Of a stretch of 64,000 bases of DNA, positions 9,733 to 51,572 are shown one piece after another. Within the stretch, counting starts at the first letter, position 1. Every line of letters begins with the position of its first letter. The DNA is from Escherichia phage vB_EcoM-LTH01. A model generated the notes under the pieces. That model worked only from the letters and a program-made list of their open reading frames with translations, had not been told where the DNA came from and did no database searches. The stretch lies in sequence record PP430345; one strand, written 5' to 3'. Position numbers and translations under genes: made by a program.

Positions 9733-10040
9733 CTTATCCTACGGTCACACAAGTCTGACCATCTATCTCTGAGCAAGGGATTTCAAAATGTCTCCCGTCC
9801 CCAAATACATCTCGCCACATAGTCTATTCGGAAGCGGGAGTCTATGCACACCCCTTGCGGTAAGTGACCTCACTTTGAGATCAGCATCTTCCTTATTCGA
9901 CGAGTTAAATTCTCTTTAAGGTAGCCAGTGTTCGCAGCACTAACTATGAGGTATCCGTAAGATGATTTCAGTCATCTACCGAAAAATTACACCAAGCAAC
10001 TACCTTAAAGAGAACTTCTTAGTAAAGGCCCTTGCGAGCC

Positions 10041-10421
10041 TTAATCTTCACCTTCTGCCATTTTATACTCACGAATCTGAGTAGTTAATGGAATAGCATC
10101 TTTAAATGCATCAGAAGGGCCTTGATGAGTTTCTGAATTTGCAGAAGTAGTTCCTCCTGCCAGATCCTCTTCATTATCTTCCATTGTGTACAGATTGTTT
10201 GCCTTTTCAGCTTGCTCAAGAATATACTTCGCAGTAGTTTCTTTAACTTTCTCTGTACCGGAAGTCAGTAGACCTTCCAGAGTTTTAATTGCTTGAGGAG
10301 TAAGTCTTGCAAACTCGGAACGAGCATGAAGAATTGCTCTCTCAGTATTGATTGCAATGCTTTCCTCTGTAGTAGGCCGACCGCGTTTTCGAGTAACGAT
10401 TTCAGCTTTAGCCATAAACAC
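10041..10421 (-). CDS. hypothetical protein with AT-hook-like KRGRP motif
   Basis: 126-aa ORF inside the tRNA region; N-terminal RKRGRPTTEE. Confidence 0.4.
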   Translation of the reverse strand: MFMAKAEIVTRKRGRPTTEESIAINTERAILHARSEFARLTPQAIKTLEGLLTSGTEKVKETTAKYILEQAEKANNLYTMEDNEEDLAGGTTSANSETHQGPSDAFKDAIPLTTQIREYKMAEGED

Positions 10422-10607
10422 CTCAATTCAGTCGATATAACTATATTAGCAGTATAATAGGATTATGTCAAGAACTTATTGAAATGTATTAAGAAATGAA
10501 ATGGGGGTGCGCCGTTTCTGCTGTAATCTACGTCGTTATCGTTGAGGGAACTCGTAGTCAGGGAACATCAGTCCGACGACTTATCGGGAGCGACCCGACT
10601 TCTTATG

Positions 10608-10682
10608 TGGTGGCCCTGGGTGGAATCGAACCACCGTCTGGCGATTATGAGTCGCTTGCTTGAACCGTCCAGCTACAGGGCC
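10608..10682 (-). tRNA. tRNA-Met (anticodon CAT)
   Basis: Acceptor GGCCCTG/CAGGGCC, anticodon loop CTCATAA, T-arm GGTGG-TTCGATT-CCACC, CCA encoded. Confidence 0.75.
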
Positions 10683-36103: not shown

Positions 36104-36487
36104 ATGGGATTTGTATTAGGTAAACGGAGTATTGAACGTCTTAAGGGCGTTCATCCCGACTTGGTTGAAGTTGTGAAACTGGCAATCAAAAAGAGTACGA
36201 TTGACTTTACTGTTGGTGAAGGTCTACGTACAATAGAAACCCAACGTAAGTATGTTGCAGAAGGTAAGAGTAAGACGATGAATAGTCGTCATCTGACCGG
36301 ACATGCTGTAGATTTGTGGCCTTTGGTTAACGGATCGGTTACTTGGGACTGGAAATATTATTACCCGATGGCAGAAGCTGTTAAGGATGCAGCAAAAGAA
36401 TTAAACATCCCGATTGAGTGGGGCGGTGATTGGACTTCATTTAAAGATGGTCCTCATTTCCAACTCCCTCATAAACTCTACCCTTAA
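36104..36487 (+). CDS. endolysin, L-alanyl-D-glutamate peptidase (T5 Lys-like)
   Basis: 127 aa; GEGLRTIETQ...SRHLTGHAVDL...GGDW layout recalled from T5 endolysin. Confidence 0.6.
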   Translation: MGFVLGKRSIERLKGVHPDLVEVVKLAIKKSTIDFTVGEGLRTIETQRKYVAEGKSKTMNSRHLTGHAVDLWPLVNGSVTWDWKYYYPMAEAVKDAAKELNIPIEWGGDWTSFKDGPHFQLPHKLYP

Positions 36488-42581: not shown

Positions 42582-42587
42582 ATTTAA

Positions 42588-42613
42588 AGGTCACCTTTGG
42601 GTGGCCTTTTTTA
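42588..42613 (+). terminator. rho-independent terminator
   Basis: GGTCACCTTTGGGTGGCC hairpin then T6. Confidence 0.65.
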
Positions 42614-42641
42614 TTGACTTGAATTCATGGATGTGTATAAT
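42614..42641 (+). promoter_or_regulatory. sigma70-like promoter
   Basis: TTGACT, 16-bp spacer, TATAAT. Confidence 0.55.
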
Positions 42642-42996: not shown

Positions 42997-43157
42997 CTAG
43001 AAATGGTAGTTCAGCATACGAGAAGGGCCGAGCAGCCGGATTCAAGTTTGGGATGTTCAAGAGAAACAACCCGTATGATCCAAACACCATGCCGGAGCAA
43101 TTTCAAGATTGGGAATCAGGATTTACAAAAGGGTATCAAGAAAAGGGGTGGTTATGA
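42993..43157 (+). CDS. ribosome modulation factor (RMF)-like small protein
   Basis: 54 aa from ATG 42993; GRAAGF...NPY...QDWESGF parallels E. coli RMF RGYQAG...CPY...QWLGGW (recalled). Confidence 0.35.
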   Translation: MTRNGSSAYEKGRAAGFKFGMFKRNNPYDPNTMPEQFQDWESGFTKGYQEKGWL

Positions 43158-43198
43158 GTGGATATGTGGGGATGGAAATAATAGGAGAAGAGAGAGTA

Positions 43199-44449
43199 AT
43201 GAAAGTTTACTTGGTAGGTGGCGCAGTTCGTGATGAACTGATGAGTGTTGAAAGTAAGGATCGGGACTATGTAGTCGTCGGCGCGACCCATGAAGAAATG
43301 ATTGAAAAGGGATTTACTAAGGTTGGTGCAGCTTTCCCTGTGTACCTTGAACCAAACACAAAAGAAGAGTACGCTCTTGCTCGAACGGAAAGATCAACAG
43401 GTCCTGGTTATCACGACTTCGAGGTTGTGTTCTCTCCCGACGTTACAATTGAACAAGACCTGATGCGAAGAGATTTGACCATTAATGCTATTGCCAAGGA
43501 TCTTTCTACGGGTGAAATTATTGACCCTTGCGGTGGTGTACTCGATATTGAACTTCGTCGGTTACGTTGTGTATCCACTAAAGCATTTATCGAAGACCCT
43601 TTACGTGTATACCGATTAGCCAGATTACATGCCAGATACGGCGGCGAGTTTACAATTGATCCTGAGACTTGGGGAATGTGCAAGGATGTTGATTTAAGTG
43701 CATTGCCAAAAGAGCGTAAATTTGCAGAGATTAAGAAATGCTTTAGTGATCAGTCAGAAATGAATAAACCTTCGGTAATGATCCGTATGTTGACTCAACT
43801 GGGAGAATTTCCTGAGCTTGTGGATTTATACGATGTTGTTCAACCCAAGGAGCACCACCCTGAAGGTGATGCATTTGTTCACACTTTACTTTGCATGGAT
43901 TATGCCCAAGCGACTCGTGCAAGTGAAGCTGTGAAGTGGGCAGTTCTGTGTCACGACTTAGGGAAATGCATTTATTGGTTAACAGGTAAATTGCACGGGC
44001 ATGAAGAACATGGTATCAAGTTGACTGAACAAGTTTGCGATCGCTTTGGTGTTCCTAACAATTGGAAGAAGTTAGCTTTAGCTGTAACTGAGCACCATAC
44101 ACGACTTCACCGTATCAAAGAGATGAAGCCAAAGAAAGTTTACGACTTGTTGGTAGCCTTACGTGGTGAAAAGGACCAGGCATTCCTTTCTGAGTTTATT
44201 GACGCTTGCATCTGTGATGCTCGTGGTCGTGGCCCTGAAAAAATGTTTGACAACTACACCCAGCCTTTGGTATTATTCTCAGCACTGGCGGGGATTGTTC
44301 AAAACAGCGTTGCAATCTCAAAAGAAAGTAAAGAGATTTCTGAAAGATTTGCTGGACGTCCAGAAGAGATCAAGAATAGAATCCGAAATGTAAAAGTAAG
44401 GTACGTTACACAATACATCGATAAGATGAAGGAGAGTGAAAATGGTTGA
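43199..44449 (+). CDS. cca: tRNA nucleotidyltransferase (CCA-adding enzyme) with HD domain
   Basis: MKVYLVGGAVRD head motif, HD-domain histidines (CHDLGK); start at ATG 43199 after AGGAGAAG. Confidence 0.8.
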   Translation: MKVYLVGGAVRDELMSVESKDRDYVVVGATHEEMIEKGFTKVGAAFPVYLEPNTKEEYALARTERSTGPGYHDFEVVFSPDVTIEQDLMRRDLTINAIAKDLSTGEIIDPCGGVLDIELRRLRCVSTKAFIEDPLRVYRLARLHARYGGEFTIDPETWGMCKDVDLSALPKERKFAEIKKCFSDQSEMNKPSVMIRMLTQLGEFPELVDLYDVVQPKEHHPEGDAFVHTLLCMDYAQATRASEAVKWAVLCHDLGKCIYWLTGKLHGHEEHGIKLTEQVCDRFGVPNNWKKLALAVTEHHTRLHRIKEMKPKKVYDLLVALRGEKDQAFLSEFIDACICDARGRGPEKMFDNYTQPLVLFSALAGIVQNSVAISKESKEISERFAGRPEEIKNRIRNVKVRYVTQYIDKMKESENG

Positions 44450-44765
44450 AGGTTATTTGATCGGTTGTCTTATTAGTTGCCCACTTTGGTTCTTACTGAT
44501 CAAATTACGGCAGAAGGGTTTTAACATTCCGTTCCCCAAGGATAGTGAAGACCTGTATATCCTAGAACCCCTGAACAATGAAAATGTAAATTTACGTATG
44601 GTCATGGTTGGTTGGCTATGTGCAACATTCTTCTGGTATCTTGTTTACCCAATTATTATCTGTGTTGCAATTGGGTCGTACTTGGTGTTCGGTATAAAAA
44701 GTTTATGTGGCCTTACTATAGGGAATGATAAATTACTAACTAAGATCTTTGGGGTTAAAAAATGA
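44436..44765 (+). CDS. small multi-pass membrane protein (paralogue A)
   Basis: 109 aa; WFLLIKLRQKGFNIPFP; paralogous to next gene. Confidence 0.5.
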   Translation: MKMVEGYLIGCLISCPLWFLLIKLRQKGFNIPFPKDSEDLYILEPLNNENVNLRMVMVGWLCATFFWYLVYPIIICVAIGSYLVFGIKSLCGLTIGNDKLLTKIFGVKK

Positions 44766-45082
44766 CAAGTTTATTAACGTATATTTTATGTTGCATTATA
44801 AGTTCTGCCGCTTGGTTCTTGTTAATCAAGCTTCGCCAGGGTGGGTTTCGTATCCCTTTGCCAGAAAACAGTAACTTACTCGACCCTTTAAATCACGGAA
44901 ATGTTAATTATAAACTCCTGATGCTAGGTTGGTTAATAATGACTGTATTCTGGTTTGTAGGGTGGCCTTTCTTGATTTTGTTTTATGCTCTTGCGTGGAT
45001 TGTTTATTCAACTATGGTTGTTTATAATCTAACGATTGGTAATGAAAAGTTTGCAAAACGAATTTTTGGAGGTAAGAATTGA
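44762..45082 (+). CDS. small multi-pass membrane protein (paralogue B)
   Basis: 106 aa; WFLLIKLRQGGFRIPLP; same architecture and LTIGN(D/E)K...IFG tail as paralogue A. Confidence 0.5.
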   Translation: MTSLLTYILCCIISSAAWFLLIKLRQGGFRIPLPENSNLLDPLNHGNVNYKLLMLGWLIMTVFWFVGWPFLILFYALAWIVYSTMVVYNLTIGNEKFAKRIFGGKN

Positions 45083-45534
45083 AAACTCGGATGTACGTAT
45101 TGGTAAACAGCTACATGATGGGAATCCAAGCAGGTATCCAAGCAGCACATGCAGCAGCAAACCTTGTAGGTCATTATGGCTTTGCCTATGCCGATCGATA
45201 TGATGACAGATACAACCTTGTAGATCAGTGGCAAAGCAAAGACCAAACAATGATCTTGTTGAACGGAGGCTATCAATCGAAGATGCTTAATTTTGCAGAA
45301 GGATTTTTAGCTCCAAACATAGAGAAGATTCCTTACGCATTTTTCTGCGAGGAGAATGATTCTTTGAATGGTGCACTTACGGCTATTGCTTTTATTCTTC
45401 CTCAACATATGTGGGATGTTAAGTTAGTTGATGGTCGTTGTCCTCTTTTCTCTGATACAATCGATCATAAGTATACGCAAAAAGAAATGGACTTTATCGA
45501 AGCATTTAAATCTTTCAAGCTTAAGCAGGGGTAA
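45079..45534 (+). CDS. peptidyl-tRNA hydrolase, PTH2-family-like
   Basis: RMYVLVNSYMMGIQAGIQAAHAAA parallels PTH2 [25 protein letters not shown]; QWQ...ILL follows as in PTH2. Confidence 0.45.
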   Translation: MKTRMYVLVNSYMMGIQAGIQAAHAAANLVGHYGFAYADRYDDRYNLVDQWQSKDQTMILLNGGYQSKMLNFAEGFLAPNIEKIPYAFFCEENDSLNGALTAIAFILPQHMWDVKLVDGRCPLFSDTIDHKYTQKEMDFIEAFKSFKLKQG

Positions 45535-45536
45535 CT

Positions 45537-45935
45537 ATGAAAGTTTCTGAATTGATTGAAGAGTTGCAGAAGTGCCGACCAGATGATAAGGTGTCCATCC
45601 CTGTTGAGGTAGGGCATGTAACAATTGGCGGGACACCACGCCGTGAAGTAGAGGCAGTGTACAGAGGATTTGACTGGGACAGCAAGCAAGTATTTTTGCA
45701 TATTTGTGCAGATGAACGCTTGACAGTAATGTCTAAAGAGGAGTATATTGAACTCATCCGATACAAGCAGTTGGTTAGCGGAATGCGTGGTAAGCAGGAC
45801 ATTGAGCATCTGTCGGATGTATTTGTGAAGAAAGACTTTGTTATCGAGCGCCTCCAGCGCTTGTCACACGTCGAAGAGTTAGAAACTTTCGAGATCTCGA
45901 ATCTCATTTCTGAAATTATTGAGGAGAAATTATAA
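45537..45935 (+). CDS. hypothetical protein
   Basis: 132-aa ORF. Confidence 0.45.
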   Translation: MKVSELIEELQKCRPDDKVSIPVEVGHVTIGGTPRREVEAVYRGFDWDSKQVFLHICADERLTVMSKEEYIELIRYKQLVSGMRGKQDIEHLSDVFVKKDFVIERLQRLSHVEELETFEISNLISEIIEEKL

Positions 45936-46330
45936 TGACTGCACCAATTTTTGAATACGTTACACTGATCTCTTTCTTTATCTTGGGGCTGATTATCCAG
46001 ATAGTGGCAGTTGCCTATTACAATCTGAACATCGATACCATGAAAAATAAAATCGTATATCAGAAAAAGAAAAGTGTAATTGGTTATTTGTTTACATTCC
46101 TTCTATCAGGTTTTGCAATGTACCTCTCATACTCTCTGATGCTTTGGGCGGGTAATGTTTCAGATATTGCCACCGCGATTTTAGTGATTCACTGGACTGG
46201 TGTAATTTATAGTACAATGATGTGCTTTAAGAAAAAGCTTAAAATCACCAGTCATGGACTTTATGGGAGCTTCTTTTATACGTTGACACTTGTTGTGTTG
46301 ATGATCATTTATGGTGTGAAATGCCTATAA
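45935..46330 (+). CDS. hypothetical 4-TM membrane protein
   Basis: 131 aa with four hydrophobic segments. Confidence 0.45.
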   Translation: MTAPIFEYVTLISFFILGLIIQIVAVAYYNLNIDTMKNKIVYQKKKSVIGYLFTFLLSGFAMYLSYSLMLWAGNVSDIATAILVIHWTGVIYSTMMCFKKKLKITSHGLYGSFFYTLTLVVLMIIYGVKCL

Positions 46331-46420
46331 ATAAAAAAGATTGCACAAGCTGCGTAAACTTTATAAAGATTAAACAGGCCAACTGGGTTGGCTTGTGTGA
46401 CTTACATGATTGGAGGATAA

Positions 46421-51410: not shown

Positions 51411-51572
51411 ATGAATACCAAATTTTTGAAACGTGTAATTGCTATCTGGGCGGGTTCTGTTGTTGTTGGTGCAGCATGTGTTGCAGCAGATCTCAAAATG
51501 GTTGAAGCTATCATTGTCGCAGTCCCTGCTGGGTTCCTTATCGGTACAGCTGCTGCTCGGTACATCAAATGA
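51411..51572 (+). CDS. small hydrophobic membrane peptide (53 aa)
   Basis: Not in ORF track; MNTKFLKRVIAIWAGSVVVGAACVAADLKMVEAIIVAVPAGFLIGTAAARYIK; ATGA overlap with next gene. Confidence 0.35.
   Translation: MNTKFLKRVIAIWAGSVVVGAACVAADLKMVEAIIVAVPAGFLIGTAAARYIK

What the first reader, a model, noticed from the sequence alone, without database searches (positions are those of the whole stretch)
44436..45082. Tandem duplicated small membrane proteins between the CCA enzyme and PTH2-like gene
Two adjacent ~107-aa ORFs share the same multi-pass architecture and blocks (WFLLIKLRQ(K/G)GF(N/R)IP, NVN, LTIGN(D/E)K...IFG) but have diverged elsewhere. Their placement inside the tRNA-enzyme island is unexplained; candidates are superinfection-exclusion or channel-modulating proteins.
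Basis: seen in the sequence. Interest (0 to 1): 0.4.

Follow-up and report, generated by a model that had tools for sequence, protein, structure and literature searches.

The report
Paired small phage inner-membrane proteins
Two neighbouring genes in this E. coli phage encode old, diverged copies of a small three-helix membrane protein found only in a narrow group of phages; both are real and kept by selection, but their function is unknown and they are probably ordinary early accessory genes.

Summary
Gene A (44442..44765, 107 aa) and gene B (44762..45082, 106 aa) lie between the CCA-adding enzyme and a weakly PTH2-like hydrolase. They are 43% identical (E 1e-31). Each has three hydrophobic helices. 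Each is under strong purifying selection in six related phages (dN/dS 0.05-0.09).

Both belong to one orphan family, PHROG 17692 (unknown function). It has 13 representatives among 1.84 billion proteins, all 105-114 aa and never fused. None was found in 185,579 bacterial genomes, and it matches no Pfam, NCBIfam, PADLOC, PDB or fold entry.

This is not a recent tandem duplication. Synonymous sites are saturated and A and B are not sisters in the tree. Copy number varies across phages: two in Septuagintavirus and one metagenomic lineage, one in most Certrevirus, and a 50-codon stump in CB7.

The link to tRNA enzymes is positional. One lineage keeps the gene beside its endolysin while its CCA gene is a remnant. 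A conserved sigma-70 extended -10 promoter heads the operon, which suggests early expression.

Best guess, at low confidence: a dispensable early inner-membrane factor like T4 Imm. A new holin or antiholin is the main rival. Interest is low to moderate.

The parts
44442..44765 (+). Gene A: 107-aa three-helix membrane protein, the divergent ('A-type') member of PHROG 17692. The ORF is also open from GTG 44436. Its start overlaps the CCA gene's 3' end by 8 nt.
   Evidence: ORF and sequence. phrog_17692 E 3e-20. This exact protein is on record as a hypothetical protein of Escherichia phage vB_EcoM-LTH01. dN/dS 0.05-0.08 against five relatives. AF2 helices 2-24, 51-63, 65-92, 96-103.
44762..45082 (+). 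Gene B: 106-aa three-helix membrane protein, the canonical (Certrevirus-like) member of PHROG 17692. Its start overlaps the stop of A (ATGA).
   Evidence: phrog_17692 E 2.7e-33. 100% identical to the phage A5-4 protein and 52-58% identical to the Certrevirus single copies. dN/dS 0.08-0.09. AF2 helices 2-26, 50-62, 64-90, 95-102.
43109..44449 (+). CCA-adding tRNA nucleotidyltransferase. The likely start is 43199 (MKVYLVGG), matching the 416-aa CDS annotated in A5-4. It is the upstream gene, translationally coupled to A.
   Evidence: Pfam PolyA_pol 4.4e-19 plus HD 2.1e-08; phrog_2244 6.9e-132; annotation in A5-4.
45079..45534 (+). 151-aa 'hydrolase' (weakly PTH2-like). It is the downstream gene; its TTG start overlaps the stop of B.
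   Evidence: phrog_3668 1.7e-37. Pfam PTH2 E 0.0097, below the cut-off. No PDB sequence match.
42586..42641 (+). Intrinsic terminator hairpin (42586-42609) followed by a sigma-70 promoter, TTGACT-16-TATAAT with a TGTG extended -10 (42614-42641). This is the probable start of the transcription unit that carries CCA, A, B and the hydrolase.
   Evidence: Pattern scan. The hairpin and TGTGTATAAT are conserved in 10 diverged phages while the flanking bases vary.
45935..46330 (+). An unrelated 131-aa multi-pass membrane protein in the same operon (context only).
   Evidence: phrog_12739 'membrane protein' 6.4e-15; hydropathy.
36104..36487 (+). The phage's probable endolysin (Peptidase_M15_4), 8 kb upstream with no membrane protein next to it. 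It is listed as context for the holin hypothesis.
   Evidence: Pfam 6.3e-15. It sits in the same slot that holds a GH19 endolysin in relatives. Literature: PMC7344957, PMC11370258.

Best explanation
A and B are two anciently diverged paralogues of a phage-only family of ~107-residue inner-membrane proteins (PHROG 17692).

Shown:
- Both are intact and under strong purifying selection.
- Each has an N-terminal TM helix, a ~30-residue loop carrying the conserved K-x-R-Q-x-G-F and LLDPLN motifs, a 40-residue hydrophobic hairpin with a W-P-x-G-W turn, and a basic amphipathic tail (TIGNEKLARKIFGGK).
- Lys and Arg are absent from the N-terminus and from the hairpin turn in all 28 sequences, and are concentrated in the loop and tail.
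- The genes overlap their neighbours' stops and starts, downstream of a conserved sigma-70 extended -10 promoter.
- The gene is dispensable, varies between 0 and 2 copies, and has moved to other genomic sites.

Inferred:
- Topology is N-out/C-in, so nearly all conserved polar residues face the cytoplasm.
- The genes are transcribed early by host RNA polymerase, and A's ATG, which overlaps the CCA gene's last codons, is translationally coupled to it.
- The proteins insert into the host inner membrane early in infection as accessory factors, independent of the tRNA enzymes.

Proposed mechanism, at low confidence: they work like T4 Imm. That is, a very hydrophobic early membrane protein alters an inner-membrane site or partner so that later-arriving phage DNA cannot enter or the infected cell is otherwise protected. 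The two subtypes would cover two specificities or form a hetero-oligomer.
For: - Real and selected: BLASTP E 1e-31; dN/dS 0.05-0.09 for both copies across six genomes with dS up to about 1.
- Membrane architecture: hydropathy and AF2 for both copies.
- Positive-inside count over 28 sequences: 0 K/R in the N-terminus and turn, against 5.1 in the loop and 3.9 in the tail.
- Early operon: a terminator plus TTGACT/TGTGTATAAT conserved in 10 phages, with overlapping stop and start codons.
- Accessory behaviour: truncated to 50 codons in CB7, with phiTE matching over the same first 47 residues only, and frameshifted in DU_PP_I, whose tblastn match like DU_PP_IV's is split in two. Two copies in Septuagintavirus and L011; one copy of either type elsewhere. 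Relocated in L020 and in FBKp34-like phages.
- Independence from the tRNA island: the L020 CCA is only a C-terminal remnant, and no hydrolase or RlaP gene was called in the 18.6 kb read.
- Phage-only and lineage-restricted.
- Physico-chemical likeness to T4 Imm rather than lambda S: maximum KD19 of 2.3 for A and B, 2.7 for Imm and 1.6 for S105, with Trp-rich helices. T4 imm likewise sits among early nucleotide and replication genes.
- An FBKp34-like locus lies in a region of small early genes with a Gad2 anti-defence gene nearby.
Against: - There is no direct functional evidence of any kind.
- There is no sequence relation to Imm (hhalign probability 0.6%) or to any annotated exclusion family in PHROGs.
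- The conserved polar motifs are predicted to be cytoplasmic, whereas blocking DNA entry might be expected to need periplasmic contacts.
- Strong purifying selection within the genus shows no sign of an arms race.
- The promoter is a consensus-and-conservation inference, not a transcript measurement.
- Topology rests on hydropathy, the positive-inside rule and AF2 secondary structure, not on a dedicated predictor or experiment. AF2 makes the second helix only 13 residues long, so a re-entrant arrangement is possible.
- In one lineage the gene abuts the endolysin, which fits the holin rival better.
Confidence: 0.3

Rival explanations
1. Holin, or a holin/antiholin pair. The family would be the unidentified class-I-like holin of Certrevirus and Septuagintavirus. 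It would accumulate in the inner membrane and at a set time form holes that release the soluble M15 or GH19 endolysin. The second paralogue would act as a timing partner.
For: - Size (105-114 aa), three hydrophobic helices, predicted N-out/C-in topology and a short basic C-tail match the class I holin architecture.
- In metagenomic phage L015/L020 the family member overlaps by 4 nt the start of the GH19 endolysin gene. This is one of only two or three relocations seen.
- No holin has been established for these genera. The CB7 paper reports that the lack of a lysis cassette makes holin candidates hard to identify, and offers only a 65-aa candidate (PMC7344957). The Septuagintavirus paper names none (PMC11370258).
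- The window's endolysin (36104-36487) has no adjacent membrane protein, so a holin must be encoded elsewhere.
Against: - The gene is truncated to 50 codons in viable phage CB7, and phiTE matches over the same first 47 residues only, so it is not an essential holin there.
- In more than 90% of genomes it lies 8 kb from the endolysin, behind a conserved sigma-70 early-type promoter.
- The helices are far more hydrophobic and less polar than those of lambda S105.
- There is no match to any holin family in Pfam or PHROGs, or to lambda S by hhalign (0.5%).
- The endolysin junction is itself a recombination hot spot (M15 and GH19 swap at the same site). Landing there is therefore less surprising than at a random site.
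- There is no conserved dual-start motif. The M-K-M of ORF A has a Shine-Dalgarno sequence 1 nt from the GTG and is absent from other members.
Confidence: 0.2
2. Modulator or inhibitor of a host inner-membrane protein, for example a transporter, a protease such as FtsH, or a membrane-bound defence effector. It would bind through its helices and conserved cytoplasmic motifs. This covers host takeover or anti-defence other than superinfection exclusion, and includes the first reader's 'channel-modulating' idea.
For: - It shares the early-operon, accessory and turnover evidence of the best explanation.
- Conserved cytoplasm-facing motifs suggest a specific partner on the cytoplasmic side.
- FBKp34-like loci place the gene among small early genes, about 4 kb from a Gad2 anti-defence gene.
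Against: - No partner is indicated.
- There are no PADLOC, Pfam or structural matches.
- On present data it cannot be told apart from the Imm-like reading.
Confidence: 0.25
3. Membrane partner of the tRNA-repair island. The protein would tether or regulate the CCA enzyme, the PTH2-like hydrolase or the RlaP nucleotidyltransferase at the membrane, which would explain its fixed position and translational coupling.
For: - In 30 of 31 GenBank records carrying the family, the gene directly follows and usually overlaps the CCA gene.
- Three of the four small multi-TM + strand ORFs in the 64-kb window lie in this island.
- Seunavirus FENT2 has unrelated small membrane proteins in the same CCA-to-hydrolase slot.
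- In FBKp34 the gene lies 1.5 kb upstream of a split RlaP-like gene.
Against: - L020 keeps an intact family member although its CCA is a C-terminal remnant, and no hydrolase or RlaP gene was called in the 18.6 kb read.
- CB7 keeps CCA and RlaP but has lost the member.
- L009, L010, L013 and L014 lack the hydrolase.
- Co-occurrence is explained by shared ancestry and synteny.
Confidence: 0.08

Closest known systems
PHROG 17692 (phage orthologous group, function unknown), the family to which both proteins belong
   Same: All 28 sequences tested hit this profile and nothing else. Members have the same length, helices and motifs. The orthologues in phages A5-4, W70, A73, A7_1, UPEC06 and LTH01 are already deposited as 'hypothetical protein'.
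   Different: Nothing differs. The group carries no function, and the two-subtype structure and copy-number variation had not been described in the papers read (PMC11370258, PMC7344957).
T4 Imm (superinfection immunity protein, 83 aa)
   Same: Both are small, very hydrophobic, Trp-rich inner-membrane proteins of a lytic phage, encoded among early nucleotide, replication or tRNA genes rather than in a lysis cassette. Both are dispensable accessory genes.
   Different: There is no detectable homology (hhalign probability 0.6%). Imm has two helices, against three here. No exclusion phenotype has been shown for this family.
Class I holins such as lambda S105 (105 aa, three TMDs, N-out/C-in, basic C-tail)
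   Same: Length, number of helices, predicted orientation and a basic C-terminal tail all match. One relative sits directly upstream of, and overlapping, an endolysin gene.
   Different: There is no sequence relation (no holin Pfam or PHROG match). The helices are far more hydrophobic (KD19 of 2.3 against 1.6). The gene is usually 8 kb from the endolysin and behind an early-type promoter. It is truncated in viable phage CB7, and phiTE retains only the same N-terminal match.
HK97 gp15 / P22 SieA-type inner-membrane exclusion proteins (recalled from memory, not tested)
   Same: They are small phage-encoded inner-membrane proteins that block DNA entry, and are moron-like and variable between relatives.
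   Different: Those come from temperate phages and are expressed from prophages. No similarity search against them was positive: the PHROG scan returned only 17692.

Membership tests
PHROG 17692 | Significant match to the family profile over its full length | tested here: met
   A: E 3e-20, profile positions 4-106 of 107. B: E 2.7e-33, positions 5-107 of 107. 28 of 28 relatives match.
Recent tandem gene duplication | The two copies are each other's closest relatives, and residual DNA similarity remains | tested here: not met
   In the NJ tree A groups with L022 and FBKp34 while B groups with the Certrevirus clade (bootstraps 69, 48 and 56). pS is 0.85, i.e. saturated, and nucleotide identity is 53%. 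There are no DNA repeats.
Class I holin | Three transmembrane domains with N-out/C-in topology and a charged C-terminal tail | tested here: inconclusive
   Hydropathy, positive-inside counts and AF2 helices are consistent with this. No dedicated topology predictor or experiment was available, and AF2 makes helix 2 only 13 residues long.
Class I holin | Encoded next to the endolysin, or in a lysis cassette | tested here: not met
   The window's M15 endolysin is at 36104-36487, 8 kb away. Adjacency is seen only in the single metagenomic lineage L015/L020.
Class I holin | Sequence or profile similarity to a described holin family | tested here: not met
   No holin family in Pfam or PHROGs matches. 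hhalign against lambda S gives probability 0.5%.
Class I holin | Required for lysis: lethal, energy-poison-triggerable hole formation | not testable with these tools
   Indirect evidence only: the gene is truncated in viable phage CB7, with phiTE matching only the first 47 residues. This argues against an essential role there.
T4 Imm-type superinfection immunity | Homology to Imm | tested here: not met
   hhalign of the family profile against T4 Imm gives probability 0.6%.
T4 Imm-type superinfection immunity | Small inner-membrane protein expressed early from a host-type promoter | tested here: inconclusive
   A conserved terminator plus extended -10 sigma-70 promoter heads the operon. No transcript data exist.
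T4 Imm-type superinfection immunity | Expression excludes superinfecting phage DNA | not testable with these tools
   This needs plating-efficiency and DNA-entry assays.
Known anti-phage defence or counter-defence families (PADLOC) | Profile match | tested here: not met
   No families match at E up to 1.

The most novel reading that the evidence does not exclude
PHROG 17692 is a new holin family, and in Septuagintavirus a holin/antiholin-like pair. It would be the missing membrane-lesion component for the soluble M15 and GH19 endolysins of Certrevirus and Septuagintavirus phages. It would be unusual in being encoded away from the endolysin, inside an early tRNA-repair operon.
Probability: 0.2. 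Interest if true: 0.45.

Novelty: new member of a known kind. Interest (0 to 1): 0.25.

Why it matters
In practice the result gives a clean annotation. The two 'hypothetical proteins' of Septuagintavirus phages, which are candidate therapeutic E. coli phages, are two subtypes of one orphan inner-membrane protein family. The family has defined motifs, a defined topology and a defined distribution, and it is not tied functionally to the tRNA enzymes around it.

If the family proved to be the missing holin of this phage group, or an exclusion factor, that would bear on lysis timing, on phage cocktail design (mutual exclusion between related phages) and on engineering. Otherwise it is one more small accessory membrane protein of the kind common in large lytic phages. 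It does not open a long-standing question.

Tried and rejected
- **Known families.** Searches of Pfam (single sequences and all 28 members), NCBIfam, PADLOC and PDB sequences found nothing beyond PHROG 17692. Foldseek of the AF2 model against BFVD and PDB also found nothing. The afdb50 library was unavailable.
- **Profile search of 1.84 billion representatives.** It gave only 13 hits. The one long hit (P0029, 291 aa) is a TPR-like repeat protein and was rejected as spurious.
- **Bacterial genomes.** No relative was found. A related-loci scan with the broad alignment failed for lack of conserved stretches, so it was repeated with the closer alignment.
- **Distant relationship to the CR9 gp214-like 99-aa membrane protein.** This would have made a pair ancestral. 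Rejected: hhalign probability 0.85%.
- **Distant relationship to the 73-aa membrane protein in the same slot of Seunavirus FENT2.** Not supported: probability 8%.
- **Lambda-like dual start (M-K-M) in ORF A.** Judged fortuitous from the Shine-Dalgarno spacing and its absence in relatives.
- **RNA elements or DNA repeats in the region.** None.
- **Horizontal-transfer signature in base composition.** There is only the T-rich bias expected of membrane-protein codons, and the other membrane gene shares it.
- **Virion proteome supplement of the Septuagintavirus paper.** It has no entry for W70_209 to W70_212.
- **Papers on Certrevirus, Septuagintavirus and two 2026 E. coli phages (KEC4, Jab).** None discusses these genes.
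Full report
**What is there**

The window comes from a lytic E. coli phage of the subfamily Vequintavirinae. The region 43000-46400 is 91.5-95% identical at DNA level to phages A5-4, A73, W70, A7_1 and UPEC06. These belong to the recently named genus Septuagintavirus (PMC11370258).

Two ORFs lie on the + strand: 44436..44765 and 44762..45082. ORF A most likely starts at ATG 44442 (107 aa). The AGGAG at 44430-44434 is 7 nt from that ATG and only 1 nt from GTG 44436. All GenBank relatives annotate a 324-nt CDS.

The start of A overlaps the end of the CCA gene by 8 nt. The stop of A overlaps the start of B (ATGA). The stop of B overlaps the TTG start of the next gene.

**Are they real membrane-protein genes?**

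Yes.

- Across the window and five related genomes both genes are intact. Pairwise dS reaches 0.6-1.0, dN is about 0.05, and dN/dS is 0.05-0.09.
- Hydropathy shows an N-terminal helix (about residues 3-25) and a 40-residue hydrophobic stretch (about 52-93) in each protein.
- AlphaFold2 gives the same four helices for B (pLDDT 73) and A (pLDDT 76). These are TM1, a two-helix hairpin broken at the conserved W-P-x-G-W turn, and a short amphipathic C-terminal helix.
- Over 28 family members there is no Lys or Arg in the N-terminus or the hairpin turn. The loop after TM1 averages 5.1 and the C-tail 3.9.
- By the positive-inside rule this predicts N-out/C-in. The conserved motifs K-x-R-Q-x-G-F, LLDPLN and TIGNEKLARKIFGG would then face the cytoplasm. 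This topology is an inference. No dedicated predictor was available, and AF2 makes helix 2 only 13 residues long.

**What family?**

Both proteins match a single profile, PHROG 17692 (function unknown). All 28 relatives tested match it and nothing else. There is no Pfam, NCBIfam, PADLOC or PDB sequence hit, and no BFVD or PDB fold hit beyond an orthologue.

- The family is very small. There are 17 clusters at 90% identity among 5.8 billion proteins.
- There are 13 representatives at 50% identity among 1.84 billion proteins, one of which is spurious.
- All true members are 105-114 aa, so the 'fused in relatives' refutation test is not met.
- No member was found in one genome from each of 185,579 bacterial and archaeal species. 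The family is phage-only.
- It occurs in 140-155 kb lytic phages, namely Certrevirus, Septuagintavirus and their metagenomic relatives, and in a clade of FBKp34-like Stephanstirmvirinae.

**Not a recent tandem duplication**

Synonymous sites between A and B are saturated (pS 0.85) and nucleotide identity is 53%. No DNA repeat is detectable.

In a neighbour-joining tree B falls with the single-copy Certrevirus proteins. A falls with proteins that occur alone in other phages (L022, FBKp34). Support is moderate at best (bootstraps 56, 69 and 48), and long-branch effects are possible.

A second tandem pair exists in another lineage (L011). There the canonical type lies upstream and a different 114-aa divergent type lies downstream. 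A close relative of that lineage (L024) has only the 114-aa type.

The locus therefore holds interchangeable subtypes, with 0, 1 or 2 copies:

- Two copies in the five GenBank Septuagintavirus records and the window.
- One copy in 23 further GenBank records.
- A 50-codon stump (TM1 plus loop, then a stop) in Pectobacterium phage CB7, with phiTE matching only over the same first 47 residues.
- An apparent frameshift in DU_PP_I, whose tblastn match like DU_PP_IV's is split in two. This could be sequencing error.

The gene is therefore dispensable, at least in CB7.

**Why between the tRNA enzymes?**

In 30 of 31 GenBank records carrying the family, the gene directly follows, and usually overlaps, the CCA gene. 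However, the other neighbours vary.

- The PTH2-like hydrolase is absent in L009, L010, L013 and L014.
- An unrelated 99-aa membrane protein (CR9 gp214 type; hhalign probability 0.85%) is present or absent depending on the phage.
- In Seunavirus FENT2 the CCA-to-hydrolase interval holds four other small genes, two of them unrelated membrane proteins.

In metagenomic phage L015/L020 the CCA gene is reduced to a 141-aa C-terminal remnant. No hydrolase or RlaP gene was called in the 18.6 kb read. Yet an intact family member survives at a new site.

In FBKp34-like phages the gene lies among small early genes, not next to a CCA gene. In UPEC06 the CCA gene is annotated in two pieces while A and B remain intact.

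The association is therefore best read as inherited synteny within one transcription unit, not as functional dependence on the tRNA enzymes.

**Expression**

Upstream of the 109-aa ORF that begins the unit lies a strong terminator hairpin (42586-42609). It is followed by TTGACT-16-TATAAT with a TGTG extended -10 (42614-42641). The hairpin and TGTGTATAAT are conserved in ten diverged phages while the surrounding bases vary.

This argues for transcription by unmodified host RNA polymerase, that is, early in infection. That remains an inference without transcript data.

**The holin lead**

In L015/L020 the relocated family member sits immediately upstream of a GH19 endolysin and overlaps its start by 4 nt. 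This GH19 is the endolysin type of many Vequintavirinae.

The protein's size, three helices, predicted orientation and basic tail resemble class I holins. No holin is established for these genera. The CB7 paper reports that the lack of a lysis cassette makes holin candidates hard to identify, and proposes only a 65-aa candidate elsewhere in the genome (PMC7344957). The Septuagintavirus paper names none. The window's own endolysin, an M15 peptidase at 36104-36487, has no membrane protein next to it.

Against the holin reading:

- The gene is truncated in viable phage CB7, and phiTE retains only the same N-terminal match.
- It normally sits 8 kb from the endolysin, behind an early-type promoter.
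- Its helices are far more hydrophobic than those of lambda S105. Maximum 19-residue Kyte-Doolittle scores are 2.3 for A and B, 1.6 for S105 and 2.7 for T4 Imm.
- There is no profile similarity to lambda S or to any holin family.
- The endolysin junction is itself a swap point, with M15 or GH19 at the same 8-nt junction. An insertion there is therefore less improbable than at a random site.

I keep this as the main rival, with probability about 0.2.

**Most likely mechanism**

The following observations are weighed together:

- Probable early expression.
- Dispensability.
- Subtype and copy-number turnover.
- Relocation as a self-contained gene.
- Restriction to phages.
- Very hydrophobic, Trp-rich helices.
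- Conserved cytoplasm-facing motifs.

On this basis the pair most likely acts as accessory inner-membrane factors made early in infection. They would act on the host membrane or on a membrane partner.

The closest working analogue is T4 Imm. It is an 83-aa early membrane protein encoded between genes 42 and 43 that blocks entry of superinfecting DNA. It is an analogue only, because there is no homology.

I give this specific reading about 0.3. A more general 'host inner-membrane protein modulator or anti-defence' reading gets about 0.25, holin or antiholin about 0.2, and a membrane partner of the tRNA enzymes under 0.1. None of these can be separated further by computation.

**Novelty and verdict**

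The ORFs are already deposited as hypothetical proteins and grouped in PHROGs.

What this analysis adds:

- The family definition: motifs, topology and distribution.
- The finding that A and B are old subtypes rather than a fresh duplicate.
- The 0-2 copy variation.
- The uncoupling from the tRNA island.
- The single endolysin-adjacent relative.

This is a new, functionally uncharacterised member of a familiar kind, the small accessory membrane proteins of large lytic phages. Interest is low to moderate (0.25).

Noticed in passing
window 42586-42641: A terminator hairpin is followed directly by a sigma-70 promoter with an extended -10 (TGTGTATAAT). Both are conserved in ten diverged Vequintavirinae-type phages at the head of the CCA operon.
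   Followed up: partly
window 36104-36487: The probable endolysin is a Peptidase_M15_4 protein. It occupies exactly the slot, 8 nt after the 136-aa gene and before PhoH, where Serratia phage ChuuTotoro, FENT2 and L020 carry a GH19 endolysin. The endolysin type has been swapped at a fixed junction.
   Followed up: partly
L028 (Enterobacter phage FENT2) 17049-18245: In this Seunavirus the interval between CCA and the PTH2-like hydrolase holds four other small genes. They include two unrelated small membrane proteins (108 aa phrog_29214 and 73 aa phrog_14512). Small membrane proteins of several families recur in this tRNA-enzyme island, and the reason is unexplained.
   Followed up: partly
L002 4776-5078 (CR9 gp214) and homologues in L009, L010, L018, L022, L023: A 96-100-aa multi-pass membrane protein family, unrelated to the finding (hhalign 0.85%), is present in the phages with a single or truncated copy that were examined. 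It is absent from both lineages that carry two PHROG 17692 copies (window clade, L011). The sample is small, so this may be coincidence.
   Followed up: partly
L005 (phage UPEC06) 847-2188: The CCA gene is annotated as a fragment plus a separate 68-aa ORF, while the two downstream membrane-protein genes are intact. This could be real decay or a sequencing error.
   Followed up: no
window 44436-44444: GTG-AAA-ATG gives ORF A an M-K-M N-terminus like the lambda S107/S105 dual start. However, the Shine-Dalgarno sequence ends 1 nt before the GTG, and no other family member has the motif.
   Followed up: yes
window 45079-45534: The 'PTH2-like' label for the downstream gene is weak. Pfam PTH2 scores E 0.0097, below the gathering cut-off; there is no PDB sequence match; and the PHROG name is only 'hydrolase'.
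   Followed up: partly
window 51411-51572: A 53-aa + strand ORF has two strongly hydrophobic helices. It is the only other small multi-TM candidate outside the tRNA island in the 64-kb window. It sits among small genes of unknown function.
   Followed up: no
L025 1-939: The FBKp34-like metagenomic phage carries a Gad2 (PF26128, anti-Gabija) gene. It lies about 4 kb from its PHROG 17692 member, on the opposite strand.
   Followed up: no
window 9235-10682: A cluster of five tRNA genes (Gln, Gly, Pro, Tyr, Met) lies on the minus strand, far from the tRNA-enzyme island.
   Followed up: no
L020 13220-13645: A 141-aa ORF aligns only to residues 302-392 of the CCA enzyme. It is a C-terminal remnant at the syntenic position, so this phage lineage has lost the nucleotidyltransferase head.
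   Followed up: yes
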